Below, piece after piece: positions 32,613 to 58,454 of a stretch of DNA of 64,000 nucleotides. The position numbers and the translations under genes are program-made. The stretch is from the NCBI GenBank assembly GCA_964412165.1, contig CAYPMW010000001.1, forward strand, positions 16,316-80,315, given 5' to 3'. The stretch comes from an uncultured Gammaproteobacteria bacterium (GTDB lineage: Bacteria; Patescibacteriota; Microgenomatia; UBA10105). The notes beneath the pieces were generated by a model that did no database searches, was not told where the DNA came from, and worked only from the letters and a program-made list of their open reading frames with translations. How positions within the stretch are numbered: the stretch's first letter is position 1; each line of letters starts with the position of its first letter.

Positions 32613-34289
32613 ATGTGGCGGCAACGGCTTATTCTCAGCTTGTTTGTATTTGTATTTATTGCAGTGGCAGTTCGGTTATTTTATTTCCAGATACTAGTAG
32701 GAGAAACTCTTGCACAGGCGGCTTCAAACCAATATTACTTTACTCTTGATTTACTCCCTCAGCGAGGAAAAATAATAACGAGCGACAAGAATCCTTTGGT
32801 TATGAACCAGCCTGCGTATTTAACATATGCTGAAGTAAAAAAAATTGCAAATATTTCAGAATTTACCGATAAAATTTCAACAATTCTTGAGCTGGATAAA
32901 AATGACTTGATAGGTAGACTCAATCAGGAAAAAATTGTTTGGGTATCACTCAAGCACAAAGTAGAAGAAGAAAAACGCCAACAACTAGAGAATTTACAAC
33001 TCACAGGTCTTGGTTTTGAAAAGGAAGGCAAGCGGTATTATCCTGAAGCTTCAATGGCAGCTCAGTTATTGGGTTTTTTAGGGAGTGATGATTACGGTAA
33101 TGATAAAGGATATTTTGGGGTTGAAGGTTACTACAATCGGGCACTCGCTGGAAAATCCGGTTCACTTATCCAAGAGAAGGATGCTCGGGGGTATCCGATG
33201 CTATTAGGGGAAACGCAGCGTATTAATGCAGAAGATGGTCAGGATTTGGTTCTTTATCTTGATCGGACTGTTCAAACGATCATCGAAACTAAATTGGAGG
33301 AGGGAATAAATAAATATGGAGCTAAAGAAGGTTTAATTGGCGTGATGGACCCTACTACGGGTGGAATTCTGGGTATGGCAGCTTGGCCAAAATATGATCC
33401 TCGTGAATATTCAAAATCTGATCAAAACTTGTTTGTAAATCCGTTAGTGGCTGATTCCTACGAACCGGGTTCTATATTTAAGATCATTGTGATGGCATCA
33501 GCCATAAATGAGAAAAAAGTCACTCAAAAAACGGAATTTAACGAGGACGGTCCGATTCAAATTGGAGAGTATCAAATAAAAACGTGGAATGATGTGTACA
33601 AAGGTAAAATCACGACTGCAAAAATCATCGAAACTTCATCAAATCCGGGAATGGTACAAGTCGGAAGACTTTTGGGCAAAGAAAATTTATATAAATATTT
33701 AAAAAAATTTGGTTTCAACGACAAAACCGGTGTTGACTTGGAAGATGAAACTGCCACACCCTTGCGACCATTTGTGGAGTGGGCGGACATAGATTTTGCT
33801 ACAGTAACTTTTGGACAAGGAATAGCCGTAACTCCGACTCAAATGCTTCAAGCTGTATCGGCAATTGCCAATGGTGGTAAATTAATCCGTCCCAGAGTAG
33901 TCAGAGAGATTGTAGACGCAACGGGTAAAGTTTTAGAACACAGGCCGGAGGTGATACGAGAAGTAATCAAGCCGACTGCAGCAAAAATAATCACTGATAT
34001 TATGATTCAGGCGGTAGATAATGGTGAAGTACGTTATTTCAAACCTAAAGGATATAGAATCGCAGGGAAGACTGGCACCGCTCAAGTTCCAATTAAGGGG
34101 CATTACGATCCAGATAAGACAATTGCCTCTTATATTGGTTTTGCTCCGGCTGACAAACCAAAATTTGTTATCATCGTGAGACTCACAGAACCTACACGCA
34201 GTCCATGGGGTTCAACAACCGCTGCTCCAGTGTTTTTCTCGGTAGCTCAAGAGCTGTTTACCTACTATGGAATCCCCCCAACAAATTAG
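32613..34289 (+). CDS. ftsI: Penicillin-binding protein, class B transpeptidase (FtsI/PBP2-like)
   Basis: N-terminal TM helix, the SxxK motif (SIFK) and the KTGT motif (AGKTGTAQ). Confidence 0.8.
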   Translation: MWRQRLILSLFVFVFIAVAVRLFYFQILVGETLAQAASNQYYFTLDLLPQRGKIITSDKNPLVMNQPAYLTYAEVKKIANISEFTDKISTILELDKNDLIGRLNQEKIVWVSLKHKVEEEKRQQLENLQLTGLGFEKEGKRYYPEASMAAQLLGFLGSDDYGNDKGYFGVEGYYNRALAGKSGSLIQEKDARGYPMLLGETQRINAEDGQDLVLYLDRTVQTIIETKLEEGINKYGAKEGLIGVMDPTTGGILGMAAWPKYDPREYSKSDQNLFVNPLVADSYEPGSIFKIIVMASAINEKKVTQKTEFNEDGPIQIGEYQIKTWNDVYKGKITTAKIIETSSNPGMVQVGRLLGKENLYKYLKKFGFNDKTGVDLEDETATPLRPFVEWADIDFATVTFGQGIAVTPTQMLQAVSAIANGGKLIRPRVVREIVDATGKVLEHRPEVIREVIKPTAAKIITDIMIQAVDNGEVRYFKPKGYRIAGKTGTAQVPIKGHYDPDKTIASYIGFAPADKPKFVIIVRLTEPTRSPWGSTTAAPVFFSVAQELFTYYGIPPTN

Positions 34290-34394
34290 TGGATACATTT
34301 TGTTACAATATACAACTATACGGTAATCCGTAATCAAAGGTAATTAAAATTAATTTAGTGGGATAGTCGATTTCACCTGTAAGTTTACATTAAG

Positions 34395-35132
34395 ATGCTT
34401 AGACAAAACCATAATTGCACTGATTACTTTTCAGTATATTCCAGGTGTAACAATTTTCATTGTTTTATTACAGAGCGTGGTAAAGGGAGTTTTCTTGATA
34501 CAACTGAAGCTCTTTCAAGATTTGATGAAATAAAATCCGAATTGGGTATAAACGATGGATCTTTGTATCTTATGAACCAAGTACACTCAAATAAAATACA
34601 GGTGGTAACCTCGAAGTCTCAAAATAACCCTTACGTTGATGCGCTAGTAACTGCTGAAAAAAATATTTACCTCGGAGTGAGAGTGGCAGATTGCGTCCCT
34701 GTATTTTTTTATGACTCTAAAAAAGAAGTGGCGGGAGTGGCTCATGCAGGATGGAAGGGAACACTTGGTAATATAACCAAAAGGGTCATCGATACGTTTA
34801 TTGCGTTTGGCTCGAGTACCGATGACATATATATAGCTATAGGTCCACATATTGGCCCATGTTGTTATAATGTACCTCTGGAAAGAGCTAATTTATTTTC
34901 CGAAACTTTTAGTGATAGTTTAGTCGTATCCACACGTAGCGGTAAGACTTATCTGGATATAGGTCGAGTAAATTACATACAACTAGTGCACATGGGAATT
35001 AAAAAAAACCATATCGACATCCCACCTACCTGCACATCATGTCAAATCGACCGATTTTTTTCCTTTCGTAAAGACTCAAAACCAACATTTGGTGAAATGT
35101 TAGGCGTTATTGGGATGGAGTCTATAGAATGA
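34395..35132 (+). CDS. pgeF: YfiH/PgeF-family (DUF152, laccase-domain) purine nucleoside phosphorylase / peptidoglycan editing factor
   Basis: VRVADCVPVFFYD...VAHAGWKGT...GPHIGPCCYNV, the family motifs including Cys/His ligands. Confidence 0.75.
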   Translation: MLRQNHNCTDYFSVYSRCNNFHCFITERGKGSFLDTTEALSRFDEIKSELGINDGSLYLMNQVHSNKIQVVTSKSQNNPYVDALVTAEKNIYLGVRVADCVPVFFYDSKKEVAGVAHAGWKGTLGNITKRVIDTFIAFGSSTDDIYIAIGPHIGPCCYNVPLERANLFSETFSDSLVVSTRSGKTYLDIGRVNYIQLVHMGIKKNHIDIPPTCTSCQIDRFFSFRKDSKPTFGEMLGVIGMESIE

Positions 35133-40172: not shown

Positions 40173-40913
40173 GTGAATGTTCGTATGTTAACACGCCATT
40201 TTCCGATACTCATATTACCAGGTTGGATGATGGATGCAGCTCATTATACTGTTTGTGCGAACGAATTTAAGAATTTAAGGTATGAAACGTACACGGTCTC
40301 GTTTCCGGGTTTTCCAAATGGACCGTCTATTGAAAAAGCATATGGTTTAACTGATTATGTAATATATTTAGATAAATATTTAAAGAAACATCAAATAAAA
40401 AAAGGAATTTTCATCTGTCATTCATTCGGCGGGAGAGTTGCACTTAAGTACCTGTCTCAAAATCCAGATAAAGCTTATGCTTTGATTCTTTCCGGAACAC
40501 CGGGATTTCCTAGCCAGCGCTTATACACAATACTTATTATAGGGCTCACAAAATTAGGAAATATAGTCTCGTACATTCCACCAATACTTTTTTTTCGTAA
40601 TACACTCAAACGTCTGATATATAAACGACTGGGATCAAAAGATTATTATTTTTCCCAAGGACTAATGAAGGAAACCTTCATCCGCATTGTGAATGAATCC
40701 TTAATTGACTATATGAGAAAAATCCGCCTACCAACTCTTCTTTTATGGGGTGAGAAGGACAACATGGTGAAAGTAACAGTTGCGAAAAGGATGCGTGAGG
40801 CAATAAAAAATGTCAGTCTCATAATTATTCCTGGGGGCAATCACAGTTTATTAATTAATCAGCCGAAGCGTTTTGTCCAAGAAGTTGTTGGGTATCTAGA
40901 CAAATTGACATGA
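40173..40913 (+). CDS. Alpha/beta hydrolase fold protein
   Basis: The nucleophile elbow HSFGG, a C-terminal His (GGNHS), and the right length. Confidence 0.55.
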   Translation: MNVRMLTRHFPILILPGWMMDAAHYTVCANEFKNLRYETYTVSFPGFPNGPSIEKAYGLTDYVIYLDKYLKKHQIKKGIFICHSFGGRVALKYLSQNPDKAYALILSGTPGFPSQRLYTILIIGLTKLGNIVSYIPPILFFRNTLKRLIYKRLGSKDYYFSQGLMKETFIRIVNESLIDYMRKIRLPTLLLWGEKDNMVKVTVAKRMREAIKNVSLIIIPGGNHSLLINQPKRFVQEVVGYLDKLT

Positions 40914-42373
40914 AAATTCAAGTTTTAATCGCCCTAGTCTGGGTAATTCGTATAATAGGAAATTTAATGTCCTTCATACATTTATGGTATGTGAAGGAAT
41001 ACCGGTGGGACAGGATGATGGTTCATTTTCGTCGTACACGTCAGGGTAAAATGCTACTGTTTATTCCTTGGCGAATTCCCCCATTTACCCCAAAAACTAT
41101 GTTGATTTCGATTTTTTCAGTACTCACTTTGATACTTTTATATGTTTTTCAACCCGTAACACTCATATGGAAAATATTCATTCTTGATCTTATCACGTTT
41201 CCGGTGGTCAGTTTTTGGGTAACCATATTAGGAATACCAACCCGAATGTATCACCGACGCGTGATTGCCCGTGCCAGAGAAATTATTGCTTCACGTGATA
41301 ATTTGTTGACCGTTGGAATAACTGGGAGTTATGGTAAAAGTTCCACAAAAGAATATCTGTATACGATCCTCAGTCAAAAATATCAAACACTGAAGACGCA
41401 AACAAGTAAAAATTCGGCAATTGGTGTATCAGAGGTAATCCTAAATCACTTAAAACCTGACTATGAACGATTTGTAGTGGAAATGGGGGCGTATAAAACG
41501 CATGATATTGAAGAAATGGCGCTTATTTCCCGACCACAGGTAGGTATCATTACGGCAATCAATGCACAGCATCAAGATCTTTTTGGATCGCTCGAAAATA
41601 CGATACGCACAAAATACGAACTAATTCAAAATCTTTATGGGAAGCGAATTGGGATTTTTAATGCAGACAACGAGTTTACATTTGAGATGGCAGAGAGAGC
41701 GAAAAAAGAAGAATTTACTGTCTTTATATATACTCTACGTCGGGTAATCTTTAAGACCAATCATGTATTTTGGGGAGAAAAAATTAAAGCCACCTTAAAC
41801 GGTCTTGAGATGACTGTTAAATATAATCATTTTTCCCAGCCTGTAATGGTACCGCTACTCGGCAAGCATCAAGCTCAGAATATACTTGCAGCTATTGCTG
41901 GAGCTGTGGCGTTGGGTATGACCTTTAATGAAGCAGTCAGAGCGGCGAGACTGCTTAGGGCAAATCCCAAAACCATGGAACCATTAGCAGGAATAAACGG
42001 CTCGCTATTTATCAATGATACGTTTAATAATAACCCCGATGCGGCAAAGGCAGCCATAGAATTCCTAAAACTATCAAAAGGTAAAAGAATACTAGTGTTT
42101 CAACCCATGATCGAGTTGGGTGAGTTTACCGATGTTGCTCATCGAGAGATTGGAACGTTGGCAGCTCAAATTTGTGATGAAATTCTTTTAACCAATGACA
42201 ATTTTAACGCACCCTTCATGCAGGGTGTACTTAAAGCTAAAAAAAGGGTTAATCTTAGGATAGCAAGTCCTAAAGGGATTGCCGAGCACCTGGCAATCGT
42301 GGTGGCCAAAGATGATACTGTAGTTTTTAAAGGAAAAGAAGCTGAGCTTTCTTTATCACTGCTTACTAAATAA
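40910..42373 (+). CDS. murF: UDP-MurNAc-tripeptide--D-Ala-D-Ala ligase MurF, with an atypical hydrophobic N-terminal region
   Basis: GITGSYGKSSTKE (P-loop), LGKHQAQNILAAIAGAVALG and INDTFNNNPDAAKAA (MurF-type). The first 110 aa or so are hydrophobic and lack the canonical MurF domain 1. Confidence 0.65.
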   Translation: MKIQVLIALVWVIRIIGNLMSFIHLWYVKEYRWDRMMVHFRRTRQGKMLLFIPWRIPPFTPKTMLISIFSVLTLILLYVFQPVTLIWKIFILDLITFPVVSFWVTILGIPTRMYHRRVIARAREIIASRDNLLTVGITGSYGKSSTKEYLYTILSQKYQTLKTQTSKNSAIGVSEVILNHLKPDYERFVVEMGAYKTHDIEEMALISRPQVGIITAINAQHQDLFGSLENTIRTKYELIQNLYGKRIGIFNADNEFTFEMAERAKKEEFTVFIYTLRRVIFKTNHVFWGEKIKATLNGLEMTVKYNHFSQPVMVPLLGKHQAQNILAAIAGAVALGMTFNEAVRAARLLRANPKTMEPLAGINGSLFINDTFNNNPDAAKAAIEFLKLSKGKRILVFQPMIELGEFTDVAHREIGTLAAQICDEILLTNDNFNAPFMQGVLKAKKRVNLRIASPKGIAEHLAIVVAKDDTVVFKGKEAELSLSLLTK

Positions 42374-42376
42374 TAT

Positions 42377-43600
42377 ATGTTTGAGCGGGCTGTACTTATC
42401 GGTGTATCGCCGAATATTGGTTGGGATGACTGGCGTTTAACACTCAAGTTATTATTGCATCCGAGTGAGTGGTACATAGGCATCTGGGTCGGTAAAGTCG
42501 AGGACTGGTTTCATGATTATTTTCGGATCAAACACGCTGTCAGTTTCGACTCAGCCCGATCGGCTTTATATATCCTACTTACATCACTTGAATTGGATAA
42601 GGGGAGTGAGATACTTCTTCAAGCATTTACCTGCACTGCAGTTCCAAATGCCATTTTGGCTTCTGGTTATATGCCAGTATATACCGATATTGATGCAACG
42701 CTTAATCTTGATGCGTCGGATGCTCAAGCGAAACTCTCAAAAAAGACACGCGCTTTGATCATACAACATACATTTGGCGTACCAGCAAATATGGAGAAGG
42801 TATATTCCTTTTGTAAAAATAATAATCTTATTTTAATCGAAGATTGTGCTCATTCACTTAGTGCAACGTTTAAGGGAAAATTAGTAGGCACATTTGGTAA
42901 AGCTGCGATATTCAGTTTCGGTAGAGATAAGCTAATATCTTCGGTTTGTGGTGGAATGCTCATTACAGATGACTCTATTTTATATCAAAAAATAAAAAAG
43001 AGGCAGTCGGAATTGCCATATCCATCTCGGATTTTGATTATAAGGCGGCTTTTGCATCCGTTGATCACGTTACCCGCTATGTATATATATACCTATTTTA
43101 ATCTCGGTAAATTTCTTATCGCCATTTGTAGAGCAAGTGGACTAATTACACATCCGGTGTCAGACGACGAGTCAAGAGGAGTTATGTCACTTCGCGAGAT
43201 AAAAAAATTTCCGGATGCCCTCGCCCAAATGGCATTTCATCAACTCGAGAAACTTCAGGCTATGAATGTTCGTCGTAAACATATTACCGATAGCTATTTC
43301 AAGGCAATTAAAGGGGTAAAATTACCCTCGAAAACTACTGGAGCAGTGTATTTACGGTTTAATCTCCTCAGTTCACGCGCCGACGAGCTGCGTTTCAAGG
43401 CGAAACAAAGGGGTATACTACTGGGTGCGTGGTATAGCCATATTATTGATCCTAAATCAGTTGCTTATAAAAGTGTACGTTATGAAGTGGGCAGTTGCCC
43501 TCATGCAGAAAAGGCAGCTAAAGAATCGGTTAACCTGCCAACGTATTCACTGTTAACAGACAGACAAATAACTGAGGTGATTAAACTGATATCAGTCTAA
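42377..43600 (+). CDS. DegT/DnrJ/EryC1/StrS-family PLP-dependent sugar aminotransferase-like
   Basis: KHAVSFDSARSALYILL...ILLQAFTCTAVPNAI...FSFGRDKLIS (SFxxxK Lys motif). Confidence 0.6.
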   Translation: MFERAVLIGVSPNIGWDDWRLTLKLLLHPSEWYIGIWVGKVEDWFHDYFRIKHAVSFDSARSALYILLTSLELDKGSEILLQAFTCTAVPNAILASGYMPVYTDIDATLNLDASDAQAKLSKKTRALIIQHTFGVPANMEKVYSFCKNNNLILIEDCAHSLSATFKGKLVGTFGKAAIFSFGRDKLISSVCGGMLITDDSILYQKIKKRQSELPYPSRILIIRRLLHPLITLPAMYIYTYFNLGKFLIAICRASGLITHPVSDDESRGVMSLREIKKFPDALAQMAFHQLEKLQAMNVRRKHITDSYFKAIKGVKLPSKTTGAVYLRFNLLSSRADELRFKAKQRGILLGAWYSHIIDPKSVAYKSVRYEVGSCPHAEKAAKESVNLPTYSLLTDRQITEVIKLISV

Positions 43601-44266
43601 ATGATGCCAAACTTAAATGTAATTTCGCTAGAAGTAGGTATGATGCGCACAAAATGTTATCTGATTATTGATTCTGATTCAAGGGGAGCTGTGGTGATCG
43701 ATCCAGGCGACGAAGCGGAATATATTAAAACCATTTTAAATGACCATCATGCAACGTTGACTGAAATAATCGCCACCCACGGTCATTTCGACCATGTTTT
43801 AGGAGTATTTGAACTCCAGTCAGTTTACAACTGTCCATTTTATATGAATTCCAAAGATGAATTTCTTCTCAAAAAGTTGCCATATTCGGTAAAAAAGTAT
43901 CTGAGTTTGCATGACGAGGTATTCATTCCGGAAATCACGAAGCCTTTACAGGTAGATACATCCATTAAATTTTTTGAATTTGCAGTGGAGATTATCGAAA
44001 CCCCTGGGCATACACCAGGTAGTATTAGCCTGTATGTGAAGGATGAAGGAATTTTATTTACTGGGGATACTCTTTTTGCTCAAGGTGGTGTCGGTAGAAC
44101 CGATTTTTCATATTCCAACGCTTCGAAATTACGCGATTCGATCAAAAAGTTATTTCTATTCCCTTTAGATACCGTCATCTATCCAGGACATGGAGAAAAA
44201 TCAACACTCGAAGTTGAATTAGAGTATCATAAAAAATTTTTTTCATACCCAGACGAAAAAGGTTAA
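43601..44266 (+). CDS. MBL-fold metallo-hydrolase (glyoxalase II-like)
   Basis: ATHGHFDHVLG (HxHxDH), ETPGHTPGS, and a downstream GDTLF/HGE. Confidence 0.7.
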   Translation: MMPNLNVISLEVGMMRTKCYLIIDSDSRGAVVIDPGDEAEYIKTILNDHHATLTEIIATHGHFDHVLGVFELQSVYNCPFYMNSKDEFLLKKLPYSVKKYLSLHDEVFIPEITKPLQVDTSIKFFEFAVEIIETPGHTPGSISLYVKDEGILFTGDTLFAQGGVGRTDFSYSNASKLRDSIKKLFLFPLDTVIYPGHGEKSTLEVELEYHKKFFSYPDEKG

Positions 44267-44281
44267 TTAATAAGATGAATT

Positions 44282-45301
44282 ATGGATTTTTTAAAGATTA
44301 AACTTGTCAATAATCTAAGCCACTGGGATAAATTTATCCTAAACAAAAGTCCCTGGAGTTTTTTTCAGTCATACGCGTGGGGAGACGTACAACGTCTCAT
44401 CGGCATAGAGGTAATGCGTTTTGGAGTCTATGATCGTGACAAAATGCGAGGAGCGTTCCAAATGTTCATCATCAAAGCCCGTCGCGGAACATTTATACAC
44501 GTACGGCACGGGCCGGTTTTTGATACCCGGGACCCACATGCGCTGGTCAACTATTGGAATCTATTTACTCATGAAATGGTACGTATCGCGCATGAAAAAG
44601 GTGCTTTTTGTGTCAGAGTAAGTCCAATGTATAAGGATGATTTGGTGTATAGGCAAATGCTCGGTAATTTACATTATATTCCGGCACCAATTCATCGACT
44701 CGATTTCGAGACATGTTGGTTGCTTGATCTTCAAAAAAACGAAGCAGACCTATTTACATCTATGCGTAAAACCACGCGGTATCTTATAAGACAAGCTATT
44801 AAATTAGGAGTTGAGGTAGAGATCTCCCAAAATATAGATGCGTTTCTCAGATTGTATGAACGTACGACTGTTCGCCACCATTTTATACCCCACAAGGGGA
44901 TTCGTGAGGAATACTCGATTTACACTAAAAACAAGCAAGGCATACTCCTTTTAGGAAAATATCGACGGGAAGTTTTATCAGGAGCACTGATTATTTTTTT
45001 TGGTAATCAAGCTATCTATCATCATGGTGCATCATTAGCCAGTAAAATTCCTGCTTCGTATCTTCTTCAGTGGGTAGCGATACAAGAAGCGAGGAAACGC
45101 AAGCTTAAGTTTTATAATTTTGGAGGAATTGCCCCGCCGAACGTACCGCGTCATCCCTGGAGGGGTTTATCGCTTTTTAAAAGAGGGTTTGGTGGAGAGG
45201 AAATTCATTTCATACACGCTCATGATCTTCCCACGAGTCCTCTCTATGGAGTATCATATACACTGGACAAGATAAGAAAAATAGTTCGCGGATACGAATA
45301 A
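44282..45301 (+). CDS. FemAB/FemX-family aminoacyl-tRNA-dependent peptidoglycan peptide-branch transferase-like
   Basis: The N-terminus WDKFILNKSPWSFFQSYAWGDV is characteristic of FemABX proteins; about 340 aa with a duplicated GNAT-like layout. Confidence 0.55.
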   Translation: MDFLKIKLVNNLSHWDKFILNKSPWSFFQSYAWGDVQRLIGIEVMRFGVYDRDKMRGAFQMFIIKARRGTFIHVRHGPVFDTRDPHALVNYWNLFTHEMVRIAHEKGAFCVRVSPMYKDDLVYRQMLGNLHYIPAPIHRLDFETCWLLDLQKNEADLFTSMRKTTRYLIRQAIKLGVEVEISQNIDAFLRLYERTTVRHHFIPHKGIREEYSIYTKNKQGILLLGKYRREVLSGALIIFFGNQAIYHHGASLASKIPASYLLQWVAIQEARKRKLKFYNFGGIAPPNVPRHPWRGLSLFKRGFGGEEIHFIHAHDLPTSPLYGVSYTLDKIRKIVRGYE

Positions 45302-45725: not shown

Positions 45726-46766
45726 ATGATCATTATTCTCACCATATTACTTTTTTCCGTAATTCTTAATAGCTTACTTTTCATACCATTCATTAATTTA
45801 CTATATAAGATCAGATTCCAAAGGCAGAAACAGCAAACTAAGGATGCATTTGATCAGCCTACGCCAATTTTTGATAGATTACATAATACTAAAGTTGGAA
45901 TTCCAGTTGGGGGAGGATTATTGATCCTGTTTACGACAGCAATGTTATTTCCCATACTTCTGTTACTTTTCAAATTTTTCTTCATACCCATTACTGCTCT
46001 TTACTCATTGGAACAAGAAGTAAAAATTGTGATGTTTACGTTTTTATCATTTGCGGTACTTGGATTATATGACGATTTAAAAAAGACATTTGATATTAGA
46101 AAAAATGCTTTTTTCGGATTACGGTTGCGTCATAAACTAATCATTGAAATTATTTTATCACTTATCGTTTCTTACTGGATGTTTTTTGAATTAAAAATTC
46201 AAATAATTCATATACCGTTGGTAGGAGTCGTAAGTTTGGGGGTATTTTTCATACCGTTTGCAGTATTTGTGATGGTTGCTTTCAGTAATGCATATAATAT
46301 TACCGATGGGTTAGATGGACTAGCTGCAGGAATTTTGCTTATATCACTTATGGCGTTTCTGGTGATCTCAGCTTCGATTATTGATACGTCTTTGTCAATT
46401 TTTCTCGCTCTCTGGCTTGGAGGAATTCTGGCATTTTTATACTTTAATGTATATCCAGCCAGGATTATATTGGGAGATGTTGGCGCTCTCTCGTTTGGCG
46501 CCACGTTTGCTGTCATTGGACTACTACTCGGTAAAACGTTTGCCTTACTCGTGATTGGAGGAATTTTTGTGATTGAGGTAGCCTCATCGCTCCTTCAGCT
46601 GTTATCAAAAAAATTTCTCAAAAAGAAGGCATTTGAAGTCTCACCACTACATCTACTACTCCAACACCGAGGGTGGCCTGAGCCTAAAGTGGTAATGAGG
46701 TTTTGGATAGTCAGCATTATACTATCCATCTTAGGCCTTTGGTTTGCCTTAATCACCAGACAATAA
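45726..46766 (+). CDS. mraY: Phospho-N-acetylmuramoyl-pentapeptide transferase MraY
   Basis: AFSNAYNITDGLDGLAAG and a polytopic topology. Confidence 0.9.
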   Translation: MIIILTILLFSVILNSLLFIPFINLLYKIRFQRQKQQTKDAFDQPTPIFDRLHNTKVGIPVGGGLLILFTTAMLFPILLLLFKFFFIPITALYSLEQEVKIVMFTFLSFAVLGLYDDLKKTFDIRKNAFFGLRLRHKLIIEIILSLIVSYWMFFELKIQIIHIPLVGVVSLGVFFIPFAVFVMVAFSNAYNITDGLDGLAAGILLISLMAFLVISASIIDTSLSIFLALWLGGILAFLYFNVYPARIILGDVGALSFGATFAVIGLLLGKTFALLVIGGIFVIEVASSLLQLLSKKFLKKKAFEVSPLHLLLQHRGWPEPKVVMRFWIVSIILSILGLWFALITRQ

Positions 46767-46770
46767 ATCT

Positions 46771-48165
46771 ATGGATTTTTCTGATAAAAAAGTTGCCATC
46801 ATGGGGCTTTCTGTTGAAGGGACTGACTCTGCAAAATTTTTTGCTCACGAGGGTGCAGATGTGCATTGTTTCGACAGGCGTTCAAAAGCAGATTTCGTCG
46901 AATCAATCAAAGACTTGGAGCTACTGGGTGTAAAATTTAATTTTGGACCTGACTACCTTTCAGAACTCGAAACATTTGATCTCATAGTCCGAACGCCAGG
47001 CATGAATTTAAATTTACCCCAGTTAGTTAGAGCAAAAGCACGTGGTCAGATTATCACAAGTCTGACTAAGATATTTTTCGAGTTGTGTCAGGCACCGATT
47101 ATTGGTGTCACGGGTACAAAAGGCAAAGGCACGACGTCAGCACTGATCGGAGAGATTCTAAAAACAAACGGAGATATGGTGTATGTGGGAGGAAATATCG
47201 GTACACCGCTTTTATCCCAAGTCAGAAAGATCACGCGGAAAGATTGGATTGTGCTTGAACTTTCGTCATTTCAACTTGAGGATCTTACTCAGAGTCCACA
47301 CATAGCTGTGGTATTAAATATTACTCAAGATCATCTTAAAAATTTTGATCCTTATTCGACAAATTACCATAAAACGAAAGTAGACTATATTCAAGCAAAA
47401 ACATCTTTAGTTAGGTATCAAACGAATGATGATTTCTGTGTGGTTAATGCCGATTACGACGTTTCGAAGACATTTGCGTCATTAACTCAGGCGCAAAAAT
47501 ATTATTTTTCTAGTAAATTTCCCACTCAAGGAGTATATGTAAAAGATAATCAGCTTATATTAGAAATCCGAAATACCTATTTTGAGATTTGTCGTTCAAG
47601 CGAATTTCAGTTGCGTGGAAAGCATAATTGGGAAAATATTGCTGCTGCCTCGCTTTCTGCTTATCTAGCTGGGGCAAGTAAAGATAGCATCCGGCAGGCT
47701 GTTAGAGCATTTCGAGGTCTGGCGCATCGTTTGGAATATGTGGGTGAAAAAAATGGAATCAAGTATTACGACGATTCATTTTCAACTACGCCTGAAACAT
47801 CAATCGCCGCACTAAAATCTTTCGCAGAACCAATCATATTAATTGTAGGCGGTTCAGAAAAGGGGTCTGATTACACCGAGTTGGGTAAAACTATATCTGA
47901 TTCAAAAATTAGATGCATAATTCTTATCGGTACTACTGCAGAAAAAATTGAGAAAGCTGTTTTTCATGCGTGTGAGAGAGCAAAAATTAGAGTACCTCCA
48001 ATTATTAGGCATCCTGGGAATATGGAAGATATAGTCAAAGCCGCTCGCAGTGTGGCATCACCCGGAGATGTAGTACTACTTTCACCAGCATGTGCCTCAT
48101 TTGATATGTTTAAGAATTACAAAGAACGAGGAAAACTTTTCAAACAATATGCCAAGACGAATTGA
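46771..48165 (+). CDS. murD: UDP-N-acetylmuramoylalanine--D-glutamate ligase MurD
   Basis: N-terminal Rossmann KVAIMGLSVEGTDSAKFF and the P-loop GVTGTKGKGTT. Confidence 0.8.
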   Translation: MDFSDKKVAIMGLSVEGTDSAKFFAHEGADVHCFDRRSKADFVESIKDLELLGVKFNFGPDYLSELETFDLIVRTPGMNLNLPQLVRAKARGQIITSLTKIFFELCQAPIIGVTGTKGKGTTSALIGEILKTNGDMVYVGGNIGTPLLSQVRKITRKDWIVLELSSFQLEDLTQSPHIAVVLNITQDHLKNFDPYSTNYHKTKVDYIQAKTSLVRYQTNDDFCVVNADYDVSKTFASLTQAQKYYFSSKFPTQGVYVKDNQLILEIRNTYFEICRSSEFQLRGKHNWENIAAASLSAYLAGASKDSIRQAVRAFRGLAHRLEYVGEKNGIKYYDDSFSTTPETSIAALKSFAEPIILIVGGSEKGSDYTELGKTISDSKIRCIILIGTTAEKIEKAVFHACERAKIRVPPIIRHPGNMEDIVKAARSVASPGDVVLLSPACASFDMFKNYKERGKLFKQYAKTN

Positions 48166-49273
48166 TCACCAAAAGCGCTCACGTGTGGTAACTAAAAGGT
48201 GGAGAATTGATTTACCGCTTCTGGTAACGCTTATTGGTTTATCACTTTTTGGTCTTGTAGCTATATTTAATGCTTCAACAGTGATAGCCTTAAGGGATTT
48301 TGGTAATCAGTACTATTTTTTTAAAGACCAGCTGAAATTTCTCCTCATTGGATTTATTACCCTGGGAGTGATCTCTCAGATTCATTACCGTCATTGGTAT
48401 ATTGTATCAGTACCACTTCTGATAATCACTATACTACTACTACTGGCTGTATTTATTCCAGGGATAGGAGTGCATGCACTAGGAGCTAAACGATGGGTGA
48501 ATCTAGGATTTATCATTCTTCAGCCAACAGAACTTGCCAAATTAACTATCGTGATATATTTATCTGCATGGTTCTCAAGAAAAGAAAAGGGCCGGTTACT
48601 CCCATTTTTAGTTTTAGTCGGACTCATACTTGGATTAGTCATATTACAGCCAGATTTGGGTACAGCGGTTATTATCATCACTATCGCAGGTGTACTATAT
48701 TTTCTCTCTGGTGCTCCACTAAAACATTTTTTTCTTCTGGCACCTCTCCTATTAGGTATTTTTGTAATACTTGCTGTCATCGCTCCCTATCGTTTTACTC
48801 GAATTATGACTTTTTTAAACCCTAATATCGATCCCTTAGGTTCTTCGTATCATATTCGGCAAATACTTATTGCTCTTGGATCAGGAGGTATGTTTGGTGT
48901 TGGGCTTGGTAAATCCAGACAAAAATTTGAATATTTGCCCGAAGCAAACACAGACTCAATTTTTGCGGTGATTGGAGAGGAAATTGGTTTTTTTGGAGCC
49001 CTTGTAATACTTGTATGTTTCCTGTTTATTTTCCACCGGACGTTTCTTATTGCCCGGAAATCACCTGATATGTTCAGTTTCCTTCTCGGATGTGGAATAG
49101 CTACATGGTTCTCAGTCCAAACACTTATTAATTTAGCATCGATGGTAGCGTTGGTGCCTTTAACGGGAGTGCCTTTACCACTTCTATCGTATGGAGGATC
49201 AAATTTGATTAGTCTGCTTATCGGTTTTGGAATTGTGTGTAATATAAGCACAAAATCCTCTCCGCAGACATGA
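48149..49273 (+). CDS. ftsW: SEDS-family peptidoglycan glycosyltransferase FtsW
   Basis: SEDS motifs (LQPSE-like LQPTELAKL, PDLGTAVI and GGSN), at the dcw position between murD and murG. The start is taken at the internal ATG MPRRID. Confidence 0.8.
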   Translation: MPRRIDHQKRSRVVTKRWRIDLPLLVTLIGLSLFGLVAIFNASTVIALRDFGNQYYFFKDQLKFLLIGFITLGVISQIHYRHWYIVSVPLLIITILLLLAVFIPGIGVHALGAKRWVNLGFIILQPTELAKLTIVIYLSAWFSRKEKGRLLPFLVLVGLILGLVILQPDLGTAVIIITIAGVLYFLSGAPLKHFFLLAPLLLGIFVILAVIAPYRFTRIMTFLNPNIDPLGSSYHIRQILIALGSGGMFGVGLGKSRQKFEYLPEANTDSIFAVIGEEIGFFGALVILVCFLFIFHRTFLIARKSPDMFSFLLGCGIATWFSVQTLINLASMVALVPLTGVPLPLLSYGGSNLISLLIGFGIVCNISTKSSPQT

Positions 49274-54282: not shown

Positions 54283-54579
54283 AGAAGAACATAGAGATCC
54301 TGTAATAAAATTCTAGTTAAATCTTGGAATTAAGGTTCAGGATGCGTATATAAGTAGACCTTTCCGGGTAAGCCCGTAATAGCAGGAAGTAAGGGTTGTA
54401 GGTAATAAGTTGTAGGTTGTAGGAAGAAATAAGTTTCTTACAACCCACAACCTACAACTGAAGTAAGGTGGTACCACGAATTAGTTAAGAGTTTAGAATT
54501 AAGTGTTAAGAATTCTAAGTTCTCAAACTATCGTCCTTAGATTCGACTACAATTGTGGTTGGAGATAAGGACCCTTTTT
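54283..54579 (+). promoter_or_regulatory. ileS leader with a T-box-like riboswitch signature (translational, SD-sequestering type)
   Basis: Leader of about 300 nt. Long imperfect hairpin at 54409-54458 (Stem III-like). T-box-like AAGGTGGTACCACG at 54465-78. Sequester hairpin GTCCTTA(54533-39)/TAAGGAC(54566-72) contains the SD AAGGA, followed by TTTTT at 54575-79 and the ATG at 54580. Alternative pairing AAGG(54465-68)/CCTT(54535-38) and ACG(54476-78)/CGT(54532-34) flanks the bulge UGGUACC. Confidence 0.5.
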
Positions 54580-57420
54580 ATGGTAAAAAAACACACATTT
54601 CAACCGGTTTCAGCGAAAGTAAACTTCCCCGAACTTGAAGAACGGATTCTTAAGTTTTGGAAAGAAAATCAGATTTTTGAAAAATCAATTGCAGCGCGAC
54701 CTGCATCAAAAACCTGGACGTTTTTAGACGGACCACCGTTTATTACCGGGCTTCCCCATTACGGGAGCCTTCTATCGAGCATTCCCAAAGATCTCTTCCC
54801 CCGTTACTGGACAATGAAGGGATATCGCGTGCGGCGAGTGTGGGGGTGGGATTGCCATGGACTTCCTGCGGAGAATAAGGTTGAGGATAAGTTGGGAATC
54901 ACGCGGAAAAAAGACATTGAAGAAAAAGTAGGCATCAAGAAATTTATTGAAGAATGCAAACTTTATGTGAGTGACGTTTCAGGAGAGTGGAAATGGTATG
55001 TGGACCATATCGGAAGGTGGGTTGATTTTGCACACGCCTACAAAACTATGGACATGCCGTACATGGAAACGGTGATGTGGGTATTTAAATCGCTCTATGA
55101 TAAAGGATACATTTACAAAGGCTTACGTGTATCACTTTACTGCCCCCATTGCGCCACTCCAATTTCAAATTTTGAAGTGGCAATGGATGCTGATAATTAT
55201 CGGTCAGTGACTGATCCGGGAACAATTTATAAATATCCTCTGCAAGATGTAAAAGATACGTACATATTAGCTTGGTCAACCACGCCGTGGAACAAACTCG
55301 TGACCCCGGCATTAGCGGTAAATCCCAAATTGATATACGTTAAAGTAGCACAGGCAGATGAATATTATATTCTGGCAAAATCTAGGGTAAAAATGCTAAA
55401 TAAGGAGCCTTTTAAAGTGGTAGATGAATTTCTTGGTCAAGAATTGGTAGGCAAAGCTTTCCAGCCACACTACGATTTCTATAAAGTAGATCCTGGTAAG
55501 AAAGCATTTATTATAGTGAACGGCGAGTTTGTGACCGCCGAGGAAGGTACGGGAGTCGTCACGATCGCCGCATACGGTGAGGAAGATTTGGCTGTCATGC
55601 AAAGGGAAAGCATCCAGATTGTCATGCATCTTGACGATGAAGGTATCCTCAAGCCGTTTGTGCCCAAATGGGGTGGAATGTATTATCTCAAAGCAAATAT
55701 TGAGATTAATAAAGATCTTGCGGCCCGTGGACTTATATATGATGATAAACCGTACTCTCATACCGTACCAACCTGCTGGAGATGTCATACACGACTTATA
55801 TTCGCTCCCCAGGATGCTTGGTATGTGAATGTACAATCGCTCAAAAAGAGGATGAAGGAGACTAATGAGGCAGTCAATTGGTTCCCCAAACACTTTAAGT
55901 ATGGTAGATACCTCAAAAGCCTTGAGTTTGCACCTGACTGGTGCATATCAAGGAGTAGATATTGGGGGTCGCCGGTGCCTGTGTGGGAGTGTGAGTGTGG
56001 CGAGAGATTCGTACCGGGTTCGATATCAGAACTAGAGATCCTATCAGGGAAGCATATTGCAGATCTACACAAACCGGCAATTGATCAGGTGACCATAAAG
56101 TGTCCAAAATGTAATCAACAGGCAAAACGCGTTCCTGAAGTGCTTGATAGTTGGATTGAGGCTGGATCTGCGCCTTTTGCTGAGCGTCATTTTCCATTTG
56201 AAAAAGACCTGAGACTCACAGACTTTTTTCCACCTGACTTTATTGTTGAATATACTGGGCAGATCAGAGCCTGGTTTTACGTGTTACACGTACTAGCCAC
56301 TGCGCTTTTTGAATCACACGCGTTTAAAAATGTGGTAGTTACTGGTGTTATTTTAGGAACTGATGGGCGAAAAATGAGCAAAAACTATGGTAATTACCCC
56401 GATCCCAAAGAATTGCTTCAGAAATATGGCGGCGATGCTCTACGCCTGTACCTCATGGGAAGTCCGGTGATGCATGGAGAAGACATTATCATTTCAGAAA
56501 ATGAATACCGCAATCAGGTCAAAGGAATGCTACTCATACTCTGGAACGTATATAACTTTTTTGTAACTAACGCTTTGGTTGATGGGTGGTCTGCGAAAAA
56601 TACTCCCCCCAAACCCGTACATGTTTTGGATAAATGGATCCTCTCCCGTCTTTATGAGCATATAGAGACCATGGCTGAAAAAGGGTATGAAAAGTATGAT
56701 AGCGTGTTTGTCGTACAGTCGGCAGAAAAATTTATACGCGAGTTATCATTATGGTACGTGCGGCGAAGTCGAAATCGCTTCGGGCCAGGTAGTCCGAATT
56801 CCATAGATAAAGAAAGAGCGTACCACACGCTGTGGTTTGTTTTAAAAGAATATGTTAAATCCATATCCCCGTTAATACCATTTGTTACTGAATCAATGTA
56901 TCGCAATCTTACTGGCGAGATTTCGGTTCACCTAGCGGACTGGCCCACACTTCCTTCTGAGTGGCGCAGTGTCATCCTTGAGAAGGATATGACAAATGCG
57001 ATAAAACTGGCATCCCGTGTTCATGCTTTCCGTAAACAGACGGGCGTGATAGTCCGAATTCCTATTAAAACGCTTGAATACACCGGACCAGACGAGATAA
57101 GTGGCCACGTTCGAGAGATACTTCTGGAAGAAATAAATGTGTATGATCTTGTTTACAAAGGCACGTCGAGTGACTATACTGTTTCTGGTAAAACGGATGA
57201 AATAAATCTTGATATTCAAGCAGGGTATGTGCGAAAAATTATCCGGCAAGTACAGAATCTCAGAAAAGAAAAAAAGTTAAACTTGAGCCAGCCGATCAAG
57301 CTCCAATTAGACGCACGCGATAAAGGGAAAATAACCAGCAATTTACTCGAAAAAATTAAGCAAAAAACACTCGCATCTGAAATCGTATGGGGAGACGGTC
57401 TTTCTATTTCGACTGGATAA
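54580..57420 (+). CDS. ileS: Isoleucine--tRNA ligase
   Basis: MVKKHTFQPVSAKVNFPELEERILKFW, the HIGH-region PHYGS, the KMSKS-type GRKMSKNYGN, an editing domain, and a total of about 946 aa. The start is at the internal ATG with the SD AAGGA 9 nt upstream. Confidence 0.9.
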   Translation: MVKKHTFQPVSAKVNFPELEERILKFWKENQIFEKSIAARPASKTWTFLDGPPFITGLPHYGSLLSSIPKDLFPRYWTMKGYRVRRVWGWDCHGLPAENKVEDKLGITRKKDIEEKVGIKKFIEECKLYVSDVSGEWKWYVDHIGRWVDFAHAYKTMDMPYMETVMWVFKSLYDKGYIYKGLRVSLYCPHCATPISNFEVAMDADNYRSVTDPGTIYKYPLQDVKDTYILAWSTTPWNKLVTPALAVNPKLIYVKVAQADEYYILAKSRVKMLNKEPFKVVDEFLGQELVGKAFQPHYDFYKVDPGKKAFIIVNGEFVTAEEGTGVVTIAAYGEEDLAVMQRESIQIVMHLDDEGILKPFVPKWGGMYYLKANIEINKDLAARGLIYDDKPYSHTVPTCWRCHTRLIFAPQDAWYVNVQSLKKRMKETNEAVNWFPKHFKYGRYLKSLEFAPDWCISRSRYWGSPVPVWECECGERFVPGSISELEILSGKHIADLHKPAIDQVTIKCPKCNQQAKRVPEVLDSWIEAGSAPFAERHFPFEKDLRLTDFFPPDFIVEYTGQIRAWFYVLHVLATALFESHAFKNVVVTGVILGTDGRKMSKNYGNYPDPKELLQKYGGDALRLYLMGSPVMHGEDIIISENEYRNQVKGMLLILWNVYNFFVTNALVDGWSAKNTPPKPVHVLDKWILSRLYEHIETMAEKGYEKYDSVFVVQSAEKFIRELSLWYVRRSRNRFGPGSPNSIDKERAYHTLWFVLKEYVKSISPLIPFVTESMYRNLTGEISVHLADWPTLPSEWRSVILEKDMTNAIKLASRVHAFRKQTGVIVRIPIKTLEYTGPDEISGHVREILLEEINVYDLVYKGTSSDYTVSGKTDEINLDIQAGYVRKIIRQVQNLRKEKKLNLSQPIKLQLDARDKGKITSNLLEKIKQKTLASEIVWGDGLSISTG

Positions 57421-58454
57421 TTTTTTTTCCGGTTGTACTTTTAAGTAGTATTAGTCTGGTTACTCTTCTATCAATAGGGCACAATTTTTTTTATTCTCAA
57501 TTATTATTTGTATTTTTAGGACTGGTATTATTTTATCTCCTGTCTCGGTTTGATTTCTCAATATTTCAATATTTGGTTTATTTCCTCTATATCGCCTGCA
57601 TTCTATTTCTCCTTTTATCATTTTTGGGGCCAAATGTCCGAGGATCATCTCGTTGGCTGGAAATTGGTGATTTTCGTTTGCAACCTTCTGAATTTATTAA
57701 GCCCTTTCTCTGTCTCAGTTTTGCCGGATTTATTATGCGTCATCCACCTCTTAAAATAAAAACAATTCTTATCCATACCATAATCATGCTGGTGCCGAGT
57801 TTACTTGTTTTTCTTCAGCCCGATTTAGGTAATTCACTCATTTTTGCCAGTATTTGGCTCTCTCTCATGATATTTGGAGGAATTTCACTTCGATATATCG
57901 CGGCCGTATTCCTAGGAGGGATAAGTATTATACCTCTCTCATTTTCGTTTCTTCGCGAGTATCAGCGTTTAAGAATACTAGCGTTTCTTAATCCTTGGTT
58001 TGATCCACAAGGTGCCGGATACAATGCGATACAATCGATGATTACAGTGGGTTCTGGGCAGCTTTTTGGCCGCGGATTTGGTAAAGGCACCCAATCTTTT
58101 TTGAAATTTTTACCTGAACACCACACCGATTTTATTTTTGCAGCCTTGACTGAATTATTTGGGTTTATGGGAAGCACGGTCGTATTAGTTTTGTATTTTG
58201 TATTTTTATGGAGGCTACTTAGTCATATCCGAAACCATGCGCATAATAAAATGGTTGTCTTATATATATCAGGTCTGTTTATACAGCTATTCGTCCAGAT
58301 TGTGATTAATATTGGTATGAACATGGGGATTGTACCGATCACGGGGATTACGCTACCGTTCCTTTCGTATGGCGGAAGTTCACTCCTCACTTCATGGATA
58401 AGTTTAGGAATTTTGATGTCTGCTATTCAAAAACCGCGCGTAGTGGAAAATTAG
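57387..58454 (+). CDS. Second SEDS-family protein (RodA/FtsW-like)
   Basis: LQPSEFIKP, QPDLGNS and SYGGSSLL motifs, with 10 helices. It overlaps the ileS end by 34 nt. Confidence 0.7.
   Translation: MGRRSFYFDWIIFFPVVLLSSISLVTLLSIGHNFFYSQLLFVFLGLVLFYLLSRFDFSIFQYLVYFLYIACILFLLLSFLGPNVRGSSRWLEIGDFRLQPSEFIKPFLCLSFAGFIMRHPPLKIKTILIHTIIMLVPSLLVFLQPDLGNSLIFASIWLSLMIFGGISLRYIAAVFLGGISIIPLSFSFLREYQRLRILAFLNPWFDPQGAGYNAIQSMITVGSGQLFGRGFGKGTQSFLKFLPEHHTDFIFAALTELFGFMGSTVVLVLYFVFLWRLLSHIRNHAHNKMVVLYISGLFIQLFVQIVINIGMNMGIVPITGITLPFLSYGGSSLLTSWISLGILMSAIQKPRVVEN

What the first reader, a model, noticed from the sequence alone, without database searches (positions are those of the whole stretch)
40910..42373. 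MurF with a hydrophobic, membrane-like N-terminal region in place of canonical domain 1
The central and C-terminal domains are MurF-like (GITGSYGKSSTKE; LGKHQAQNILAAIAGA; INDTFNNNPDAAK). The first 110 residues or so (MKIQVLIALVWVIRIIGNLMSFIHLW...TLILLYVFQPVTLIWKIFILDLITFPVVSFWVTILGI) are strongly hydrophobic and show none of the N-terminal UDP-MurNAc-tripeptide-binding motifs. A membrane-tethered Mur ligase would put the last cytoplasmic step next to MraY.
Basis: seen in the sequence. Interest (0 to 1): 0.5.

Follow-up and report, generated by a model that had tools for sequence, protein, structure and literature searches.

The report
Membrane-embedded MurF cell-wall ligase in CPR bacteria
The enzyme that normally finishes the soluble cell-wall precursor (MurF) has here swapped its nucleotide-binding first domain for a conserved three-helix membrane module, an undescribed design shared across ultra-small CPR/Patescibacteria that ties a "cytoplasmic" step to the membrane.

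Summary
ORF 40910-42373 encodes a 487-aa protein. Residues 131-487 are a MurF-type Mur ligase by HMMs, motifs and predicted structure (top 9 PDB matches are all MurF). Residues 1-130 match no known domain. They form three transmembrane helices plus a linker helix (AF2 pLDDT 92). The positive-inside rule gives N-terminus out and ligase in.

The N-terminal part is translated and under selection. 118 of 119 full-length homologs keep it, and the cytoplasmic loop 29-60 (motif W-x-x-KEYRxDR) is the most conserved segment of the protein. The candidate internal start M113 is not conserved.

A profile of the module finds about 300 clusters at 50% identity, always at the N-terminus of MurF-like proteins. 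There is a 3-TM class (Gottesmanbacteria, Woesebacteria) and a 5-TM class (Magasanikbacteria, Peregrinibacteria). The gene lies in a near-invariant dcw cluster, inside a CPR-wide cassette: abhydrolase, TM-MurF, DegT-like, FemAB. Relatives' MurE also lacks domain 1.

Most likely this is the lineage's MurF, fixed at the membrane with the conserved loop replacing domain 1. A lipid-linked substrate cannot be excluded. Nine full-text literature searches found no description of it. Verdict: new variant of a known kind.

The parts
40910..42373 (+). Whole gene: integral-membrane MurF-type ligase (487 aa plus stop)
   Evidence: ORF list and sequence. Homologs of the same length cover 97-100% of it.
40913..40993 (+). 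TM helix 1 (residues 2-28), N-terminus outside. W11, R14 and N18 are invariant within the 3-TM class.
   Evidence: AF2 DSSP helix 2-28. Hydropathy 2.26. K+R before it averages 0.1. Conservation.
40994..41089 (+). Cytoplasmic juxtamembrane loop (residues 29-60) carrying the invariant K29-E30-Y31-R32-x-D34-R35 motif, H39 and G46. It is the most conserved segment of the protein.
   Evidence: Entropy 1.13 against 1.38 for Mur_M. KEYRxDR frequency 0.98-1.0 in both the 3-TM (n=131) and 5-TM (n=151) classes. Mean K+R 7.8 in the 24-sequence alignment and 8.8 in 122 family members, so it is on the inside.
41090..41149 (+). TM helix 2 (residues 61-80)
   Evidence: AF2 helix 61-80. Hydropathy 2.2.
41150..41161 (+). 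Short external turn (residues 81-84)
   Evidence: K+R = 0 in all aligned sequences. Break between helices 61-80 and 85-107.
41162..41230 (+). TM helix 3 (residues 85-107), with D93 and F97-P98 conserved in the 3-TM class
   Evidence: AF2 helix 85-107. Hydropathy 2.22. Conservation.
41234..41290 (+). Basic linker helix (residues 109-127; Y114-H115 conserved). It runs from TM3 straight into the first strand of the ATP-binding domain.
   Evidence: AF2 helix 109-127, continuous with TM3 in the N-terminal-only model (H85-128). K+R 4.7-4.8.
41318..41899 (+). Mur ligase middle (ATP-binding) domain, residues 137-330. P-loop G136-T146 lies at nt 41315-41347. E191, H221 and K235 align with conserved E. 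coli MurF positions.
   Evidence: Pfam PF08245, E 1e-34. Alignment to 1GG4. Invariant columns.
41975..42337 (+). Mur ligase C-terminal domain, residues 356-476, with MurF-type motifs NDTFNNNP (369-376, nt 42014-42037) and PMIELG (399-404)
   Evidence: Pfam PF02875, E 6.5e-12. Alignment to E. coli MurF DDSYNANV / GDMAELG. Invariant columns.
40173..40913 (+). Upstream alpha/beta-hydrolase, translationally coupled (ATGA overlap). First gene of the conserved cassette.
   Evidence: Pfam Abhydrolase_1/6. Directly upstream in every related locus that spans this position, in both the 3-TM and 5-TM classes.
42377..43600 (+). Downstream DegT/DnrJ/EryC1-type PLP enzyme, a cassette member
   Evidence: Pfam PF01041, E 7e-58. 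Only its N-terminal half matches sugar aminotransferases. Always directly downstream.
44282..45301 (+). FemAB-family peptidyltransferase, a cassette member
   Evidence: Pfam PF02388. Conserved after DegT in both classes.
45726..46766 (+). MraY, the next enzyme of the pathway and an integral membrane protein, 3.3 kb downstream
   Evidence: Pfam Glycos_transf_4. Many TM peaks.

Best explanation
This is the lineage's MurF, the ATP-dependent ligase that adds D-Ala-D-Ala to the MurNAc-tripeptide precursor, built as an integral membrane protein. The canonical UDP-binding domain 1 has been replaced by a three-helix membrane module. The N-terminus is outside, and the ligase and a conserved basic loop are inside.

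A rigid helix continuous with TM3 holds the ATP-binding domain close to the inner face of the membrane. The invariant juxtamembrane loop (W-x-x-KEYRxDR) then sits where domain 1 would normally hold the diphosphate end of the substrate. I infer that the loop takes over that role, or docks a partner such as MraY or MurE, or both. On this reading UDP-MurNAc-pentapeptide is made at the membrane surface, next to MraY.

Shown here: real translation, topology, MurF-type catalytic body, family-wide conservation, genomic context. Inferred: D-Ala-D-Ala ligase activity, the role of the loop, and hand-over to MraY.
For: - MurF identity of residues 131-487. TIGR01143 murF is the best family at 208 bits, against MurD 93, MurE 81 and MurC 60. 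The best PDB sequence hits are MurF. The top 9 Foldseek hits are all MurF, E 4e-27 to 1e-22. The P-loop, E191, H221, K235, GxHxxxN, D-x-F-N-N-N-P and M-x-E-L-G positions are invariant.
- The membrane module is real. AF2 gives pLDDT 91.9 full-length and 93.5 for the module alone, with helices 2-28, 61-80 and 85-107. K+R alternates 0.1/8.8/0.8/4.7 in 122 3-TM proteins and 0.1/6.9/0.7/5.3/0.9/6.1 in 92 5-TM proteins. The 5-TM class differs by an even-numbered, two-helix insertion, which preserves the topology.
- It is more than an anchor. Loop 29-60 is the most conserved segment. KEYRxDR is 98-100% conserved in both classes.
- It is the only MurF-type gene in each near-invariant dcw cluster, alongside MurA, B, C, (D), E, MraY, MurG and a transpeptidase PBP.
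- In MurE and MurF crystal structures the substrate's pyrophosphate lies at the boundary between the N-terminal and middle domains (PMC6113224). In this protein that boundary is the membrane surface.
Against: - No biochemical data exist.
- The TIGR01143 score is below its curated cut-off (208 against 288.6).
- No Ddl or Alr is in the window, so the D-Ala-D-Ala supply is unverified.
- I could not scan whole genomes for a second, canonical MurF.
- The constant association with a DegT-like enzyme and an alpha/beta-hydrolase is not explained by a plain MurF role.
Confidence: 0.55

Rival explanations
1. The protein is the same, but its substrate is lipid-linked. It would add D-Ala-D-Ala to undecaprenyl-PP-MurNAc-tripeptide at the membrane, with the TM module and basic loop binding the polyprenyl-diphosphate. 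Together with the domain-1-less MurE, this implies a re-ordered pathway in which MraY acts after MurD.
For: - Loss of the UDP-binding domain in both late ligases. MurF has it replaced by a membrane module. The relatives' MurE is 393 aa, starts at profile position 71, and 120 of 120 top homologs are 366-422 aa. MurC and MurD keep full-length N-domains.
- MurT, the known Mur ligase that works on lipid II, also lacks domain 1. The stated rationale is that the pyrophosphate marks where the substrate leaves the membrane, so an N-domain would clash with it (PMC6113224).
- FemAB, a cassette partner, belongs to a family whose S. aureus members act on lipid II.
- The basic residues K29, R32 and R35 sit at the membrane interface.
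Against: - No direct evidence.
- MraY would have to transfer a dipeptide or tripeptide precursor.
- The short MurE has no membrane segment.
- The basic loop could equally bind the UDP diphosphate.
- The gene order does not require a re-ordered pathway.
Confidence: 0.22
2. It is a MurF-derived amide ligase with a different job. It would attach another amino acid or dipeptide, or act on a modified sugar acceptor, together with the co-conserved alpha/beta-hydrolase, DegT-like PLP enzyme and FemAB.
For: - The four-gene cassette is conserved in both classes, even where it lies away from the other mur genes.
- The score is below the MurF curated cut-off.
- The cassette partners have no equivalog assignment.
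Against: - It is the only MurF-type gene in an otherwise complete dcw set that includes a D,D-transpeptidase PBP, which needs a D-Ala-D-Ala terminus.
- The MurF-specific C-domain motifs are invariant.
- Structural neighbours are MurF, ahead of MurE, MurC and MurT.
Confidence: 0.1
3. The module is a passive membrane anchor only. Its conserved motif serves folding or insertion, not substrate or partner binding.
For: - The intramembrane R14, N18 and D93 are class-specific and could simply be packing residues.
- The relatives' MurE works, by inference, with no domain 1 at all.
Against: - A simple anchor rarely has its cytoplasmic loop as the most conserved part of the protein.
- It would also be unlikely to keep a seven-residue charged motif at 98-100% across classes whose TM helices have otherwise diverged.
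Confidence: 0.1
4. Annotation artefact: the true start is downstream (for example M113) and the hydrophobic stretch is not translated.
For: A 375-aa database entry, 100% identical, starts at M113. An AGGA lies 12-16 nt upstream of that ATG.
Against: - That entry is on a 1,482-bp contig and is cut at the contig end.
- M113 is Met in 1 of 24 homologs.
- The N-terminal region is conserved at protein level in about 300 clusters.
- The other two frames carry 15 and 4 stops.
- The start is translationally coupled to the upstream gene here and in relatives.
Confidence: 0.01

Closest known systems
Canonical MurF (UDP-MurNAc-tripeptide:D-Ala-D-Ala ligase; e.g. E. coli 1GG4, A. baumannii 4QF5, P. aeruginosa 4CVK)
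   Same: Middle ATP-binding domain and C-terminal domain. The P-loop, Mg/His/Lys catalytic positions and the MurF-type C-domain motifs are shared. It is the best HMM and best structural match, and the gene lies in the dcw cluster upstream of mraY.
   Different: The soluble alpha/beta domain 1 that binds the UDP end of the substrate is absent. A 3-TM (or 5-TM) membrane module with a conserved KEYRxDR loop replaces it. The score is below the curated MurF cut-off.
MurT (of the MurT/GatD lipid II amidotransferase)
   Same: A Mur-ligase-fold enzyme lacking domain 1 whose closest structural relatives are MurF. It works at the membrane on a lipid-linked precursor (PMC6113224).
   Different: MurT is a soluble or peripheral protein with no TM helices, works with GatD, and amidates D-Glu. 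The MurT model (NF045635) does not appear among the target's NCBIfam hits.
PgsB/CapB of the poly-gamma-glutamate synthetase complex
   Same: A Mur-ligase-superfamily amide ligase with a hydrophobic N-terminal segment. It is membrane-localised with a cytoplasmic catalytic domain (PMC7490850).
   Different: It has a single signal/anchor-like segment, polymerises glutamate, belongs to the PgsBCA(E) complex, and shows no MurF-specific motifs. No PgsB family appears among the target's hits.
Natural Mur chimeras (MurE-MurF, MurD-FtsW, MraY-MurG)
   Same: Evolutionary solutions that physically couple Mur steps to each other or to membrane proteins (PMC10214165).
   Different: Those are fusions of complete, recognisable enzymes. 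Here a domain is replaced by a dedicated small membrane module that has no detectable free-standing homolog.

Membership tests
MurF (TIGR01143 / UDP-MurNAc-tripeptide--D-Ala-D-Ala ligase) | Mur ligase middle domain with an ATP-binding P-loop (GxxGK[ST]) | tested here: met
   PF08245, E 1e-34, residues 137-330. G136-ITGSYGKSS-T146 is invariant in homologs.
MurF (TIGR01143 / UDP-MurNAc-tripeptide--D-Ala-D-Ala ligase) | Mur ligase C-terminal domain with MurF-type motifs (D-x-[YF]-N-x-N-P; M-x-E-L-G; conserved His) | tested here: met
   PF02875, E 6.5e-12. NDTFNNNP, PMIELG and H411 align to E. coli MurF DDSYNANV, DMAELG and H, and are invariant.
MurF (TIGR01143 / UDP-MurNAc-tripeptide--D-Ala-D-Ala ligase) | Score at or above the curated family cut-off | tested here: not met
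   208.0 bits against a cut-off of 288.6. It is still the best-scoring family by a wide margin.
MurF (TIGR01143 / UDP-MurNAc-tripeptide--D-Ala-D-Ala ligase) | N-terminal domain 1 (alpha/beta, binds the UDP end of the substrate) | tested here: not met
   The HMM aligns only from profile position 73. There is no Pfam hit in residues 1-130. AF2 predicts an all-helical membrane bundle. As controls, MurC and MurD of the same window align full-length.
MurF (TIGR01143 / UDP-MurNAc-tripeptide--D-Ala-D-Ala ligase) | Closest 3-D neighbours are MurF rather than other Mur ligases | tested here: met
   Foldseek against PDB: ranks 1-9 are all MurF (E 4e-27 to 1e-22), and MurE/MurC begin at rank 11.
MurF (TIGR01143 / UDP-MurNAc-tripeptide--D-Ala-D-Ala ligase) | Sole MurF-type gene within a dcw cluster containing the other Mur enzymes and MraY | tested here: met
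   True for the cluster in the window and in 40+ related loci. Whole genomes could not be scanned.
MurF (TIGR01143 / UDP-MurNAc-tripeptide--D-Ala-D-Ala ligase) | Catalyses ATP-dependent addition of D-Ala-D-Ala to UDP-MurNAc-tripeptide | not testable with these tools
   Requires enzymology or complementation.
MurT (lipid II isoglutaminyl synthase subunit) | Match to the MurT model / DUF1727 C-terminal domain, and partnership with GatD | tested here: not met
   NF045635 is not among the hits at E<=1. The C-domain is PF02875. No GatD-like gene is adjacent.
PgsB/CapB poly-gamma-glutamate synthetase | Match to a PgsB model, with pgsC/pgsA neighbours | tested here: not met
   No PgsB family among the NCBIfam hits. 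The neighbours are peptidoglycan genes.
Integral membrane protein (multi-pass, N-out/C-in) | Three or more hydrophobic helices of about 20 residues with positive-inside charge alternation, conserved in homologs | tested here: met
   Hydropathy, AF2 helices and K+R alternation in 122 + 92 family members. Experimental topology was not tested.

The most novel reading that the evidence does not exclude
In Gottesmanbacteria-type CPR bacteria, and possibly CPR generally, the peptidoglycan pathway is re-ordered. MurC and MurD, which keep their UDP-binding domains, would work on the nucleotide precursor. MraY would then transfer the short precursor to undecaprenyl phosphate. The domain-1-less MurE and the membrane-embedded MurF would complete the stem peptide on the lipid carrier, with the KEYRxDR loop binding the polyprenyl-diphosphate and FemAB acting next in the same membrane-proximal cassette.
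Probability: 0.15. Interest if true: 0.9.

Novelty: new variant of a known kind. Interest (0 to 1): 0.62.

Why it matters
MurC-F are textbook soluble cytoplasmic enzymes. How their product reaches the membrane enzyme MraY, whether by free diffusion or through an organised complex, is a long-standing question. It has so far been approached through weak interactions and rare gene fusions.

A naturally membrane-integrated MurF, conserved across a large bacterial radiation, has three consequences:
- It shows that domain 1 is dispensable or replaceable.
- It gives a defined system in which to test membrane-coupled precursor synthesis, or even lipid-linked stem-peptide assembly.
- It adds a concrete, sequence-defined peculiarity to the poorly understood CPR cell envelope. 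The W-x-x-KEYRxDR motif could also serve as a lineage marker and an annotation rule.

The parallel loss of domain 1 in MurE, and the conserved abhydrolase, MurF, DegT, FemAB cassette, suggest that the late steps of wall-precursor synthesis differ systematically in these organisms.

Tried and rejected
- Downstream start (M113 and other internal Met/Val/Leu codons): rejected.
- Hidden canonical domain 1: rejected.
- Free-standing version of the module. The short hits checked (130 and 136 aa) run off contig ends, so they are fragments.
- AFDB Foldseek search: the library was unavailable.
- Naming of the distant class through cluster look-up: almost no names returned. This was solved with a second homology search.
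- Literature: nine full-text searches (MurF / Mur ligase with transmembrane, CPR, Patescibacteria, Parcubacteria, Gottesmanbacteria, membrane-anchored, lipid-linked) found no description of a membrane-embedded MurF. The survey of natural Mur chimeras does not mention one.
- Ddl, Alr, MurE or a second MurF in the window: none found. For a 64-kb window this says nothing about the rest of the genome.
- Specific functions for the alpha/beta-hydrolase, DegT-like and FemAB partners: no equivalog-level match.
- Distance from the conserved loop to the substrate site: could not be measured, because model coordinates are not exposed.
Full report
**Observation.** Its ATG overlaps the stop codon of the upstream gene (ATGA). 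The three quoted MurF-like motifs are present, at residues 136-148, 317-332 and 368-380. Pfam recognises only the Mur ligase middle domain (137-330, E 1e-34) and C-terminal domain (356-476, E 6.5e-12), and nothing at E<=1 in residues 1-130. The full-length MurF model TIGR01143 is the best NCBIfam family at 208 bits, against MurD 93, MurE 81 and MurC 60. It aligns only from profile position 73 onto residues 131-475 and stays below its curated cut-off of 288.6. E. coli MurF (1GG4) aligns from its residue 102. As controls, MurC and MurD from the same window align full-length to their models. Hydropathy peaks of 2.2-2.3 (19-residue windows) occur at about 1-26, 62-86 and 88-110. Among twelve neighbouring cell-wall proteins, only the true membrane proteins MraY and DAGK reach such values.

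**Not an annotation artefact.** The top 120 homologs (45-52% identity; named ones are Ca. Gottesmanbacteria or Patescibacteria) are 466-501 aa and cover 97-100% of the query. Of the 119 full-length ones, 118 have KEYRxDR at about residue 30, and the P-loop sits at about residue 136 in the 116 where the search pattern finds it. In a 24-sequence alignment, the loop 29-60 is the most conserved segment of the whole protein: mean entropy 1.13, against 1.38 for the catalytic middle domain. Invariant positions include W11, R14, N18, L25, W26, K29, E30, Y31, R32, D34, R35, H39, D93, P110 and H115; F97 is invariant in this alignment and nearly so in the 30-sequence N-terminal alignment. The candidate internal start M113 is Met in only 1 of 24 sequences. 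The single 375-aa database entry that starts there lies on a 1,482-bp contig and is simply cut off. The other two reading frames of the N-terminal region carry 15 and 4 stop codons.

**Anatomy and topology.** AlphaFold2 with the family alignment gives a confident model (mean pLDDT 91.9, pTM 0.87). It has helices 2-28, 33-42, 61-80 and 85-107, then a helix 109-127 that leads directly into the first beta-strand and P-loop of the ATP-binding domain. The module modelled alone is equally confident (pLDDT 93.5), and there TM3 and the linker form one continuous helix, 85-128. Lys+Arg counts alternate as expected for a membrane protein. In 122 family members the values are 0.1 (N-terminus), 8.8 (loop 1), 0.8 (turn) and 4.7 (linker). 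By the positive-inside rule, the N-terminus is outside, and the conserved loop and the ligase are cytoplasmic.

**The catalytic body is MurF-type.** Foldseek places nine MurF crystal structures at ranks 1-9 (E 4e-27 to 1e-22, TM about 0.55-0.73 over about 385 columns), ahead of MurE and MurC. The alignment with E. coli MurF matches the P-loop, E191, H221, K235, GKHxxxN, NDTFNNNP (E. coli DDSYNANV) and PMIELG (E. coli DMAELG). All of these are invariant in the family.

**Genomic context.** The window carries a dcw-type cluster in this order: RsmH, PBP, PgeF, MurC, MurB, MurA, GlmU-like nucleotidyl/acetyltransferase, alpha/beta-hydrolase, the target, DegT-like PLP enzyme, MBL hydrolase, FemAB, DAGK, MraY, MurD, FtsW, MurG, FtsA. 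In 40+ related loci this order is almost invariant, and the TM form is the only MurF-type gene in each cluster. Relatives also carry a 393-aa MurE between PBP and PgeF. It passes the MurE cut-off (376 bits against 257) but starts at profile position 71, so it too lacks domain 1. The 120 best homologs of that MurE are 366-422 aa, the shortest being an alternative gene call of the same gene. The window is the only locus without murE at that site, and no MurE occurs anywhere in its 64 kb. In the 5-TM class the gene is not in a dcw cluster, yet the cassette of alpha/beta-hydrolase, TM-MurF, DegT-like and FemAB is retained. There it is preceded by seryl-tRNA synthetase and followed, in two of the four loci, by a POTRA/FtsQ-like gene.

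**Mechanism.** The best-supported reading is that this is the lineage's MurF built as an integral membrane protein. The ligase is held against the inner face of the membrane by a rigid helix continuous with TM3. The invariant basic loop occupies the place of the lost domain 1. The MurT/GatD structural paper notes that in MurE (4C12) and MurF (4CVK) complexes the substrate's pyrophosphate lies at the boundary between the N-terminal and middle domains. It adds that for a Mur ligase acting on lipid II, that boundary is where the membrane must be (PMC6113224). In the present protein that boundary is the membrane surface. This geometry fits two alternatives:
- (a) The UDP-MurNAc-tripeptide is bound with its diphosphate on the KEYRxDR loop, and the product is released next to MraY. 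I rate this more likely (0.55) because it needs no change to the rest of the pathway.
- (b) The substrate is a lipid-linked tripeptide. I rate this 0.22. It is made attractive by the parallel loss of domain 1 in MurE, while MurC and MurD keep theirs, and by the MurT precedent.

Smaller possibilities are a diverged ligase function tied to the DegT, hydrolase and FemAB partners (0.10) and a purely passive anchor (0.10). The artefact explanation is essentially excluded (0.01).

**Comparison with known systems.** The protein works like MurF and is its closest relative. It nevertheless fails two formal membership criteria: domain 1 is absent, and the score is below the curated cut-off. It resembles MurT in lacking domain 1 and being geared to the membrane. 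It resembles PgsB/CapB in being a Mur-type ligase with a hydrophobic N-terminus (PMC7490850). It resembles MurD-FtsW and MraY-MurG chimeras in coupling Mur steps to the membrane (PMC10214165). It is not a member of any of those families.

**Novelty.** Nine full-text searches found no description of a membrane-embedded MurF, and targeted reading of the Mur-chimera survey found none either. Databases simply label these proteins MurF. I therefore class it as a new variant of a known kind.

**Limits.**
- No biochemistry is available.
- Whole genomes could not be scanned for a second MurF, Ddl or Alr.
- Many MAG record titles are unreliable, for example 'uncultured Gammaproteobacteria' on loci with typical Patescibacteria synteny.

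Noticed in passing
window 34290-34394 (between PBP 32613-34289 and PgeF 34395-35132): All related loci that span this position carry a 393-aa murE here. The window has only a 105-bp gap, and there is no MurE anywhere in its 64 kb. The gene may have moved elsewhere in this genome, or been lost.
   Followed up: partly
L001:2435-3616, L003:2306-3487 and equivalents in L006-L046: MurE of this lineage is about 390 aa and lacks the canonical N-terminal domain 1. It scores 376 bits on TIGR01085 (above the cut-off) but aligns only from profile position 71. The 120 best homologs are 366-422 aa. MurC and MurD keep their N-domains.
   Followed up: yes
window 40173-45301; L047:9270-13864; L050:7262-11878; L051:405-4801; L052:7254-11912: A four-gene cassette (alpha/beta-hydrolase, TM-MurF, DegT-like PLP enzyme, FemAB) is conserved across distant CPR lineages, often with overlapping stops and starts. 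In the 5-TM class it lies away from the other mur genes and directly follows seryl-tRNA synthetase. The roles of the hydrolase and the PLP enzyme are unknown.
   Followed up: partly
window 42377-43600: The DegT-like protein matches sugar aminotransferase models (PseC, LegC, WecE, ArnB) only over its N-terminal half (residues about 35-208 of 407). The C-terminal half is divergent.
   Followed up: no
window 1-24020: A large glycosylation/polysaccharide block precedes the dcw cluster. It holds four PMT/PMT_2-type membrane glycosyltransferases, numerous GT2 and GT4 enzymes, a Wzx-like flippase (Polysacc_synt), a methyltransferase and a mannose-1-P guanylyltransferase-like gene.
   Followed up: partly
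window 54553-58454: A second SEDS protein (FtsW/RodA family, 57387-58454) follows a 955-aa ORF (54553-57420) that I did not examine. This may be an elongation-type PBP/RodA pair in addition to the FtsW at 48092-49273.
   Followed up: no
L005-L046 record titles; P0232, P0287: Many MAGs that carry the typical Patescibacteria dcw synteny are titled 'uncultured Gammaproteobacteria bacterium'. Single family members are labelled Bathyarchaeia or Kapabacteria. These are probably taxonomic mislabels or mis-binning in public records.
   Followed up: no
P0232 (571 aa), P0265 (597 aa): Some family members are longer. P0232 has KEYRxDR at residue 56, with an extra hydrophobic segment ahead of it. An added single helix would flip the N-terminus to the inside. 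I did not examine this further.
   Followed up: no
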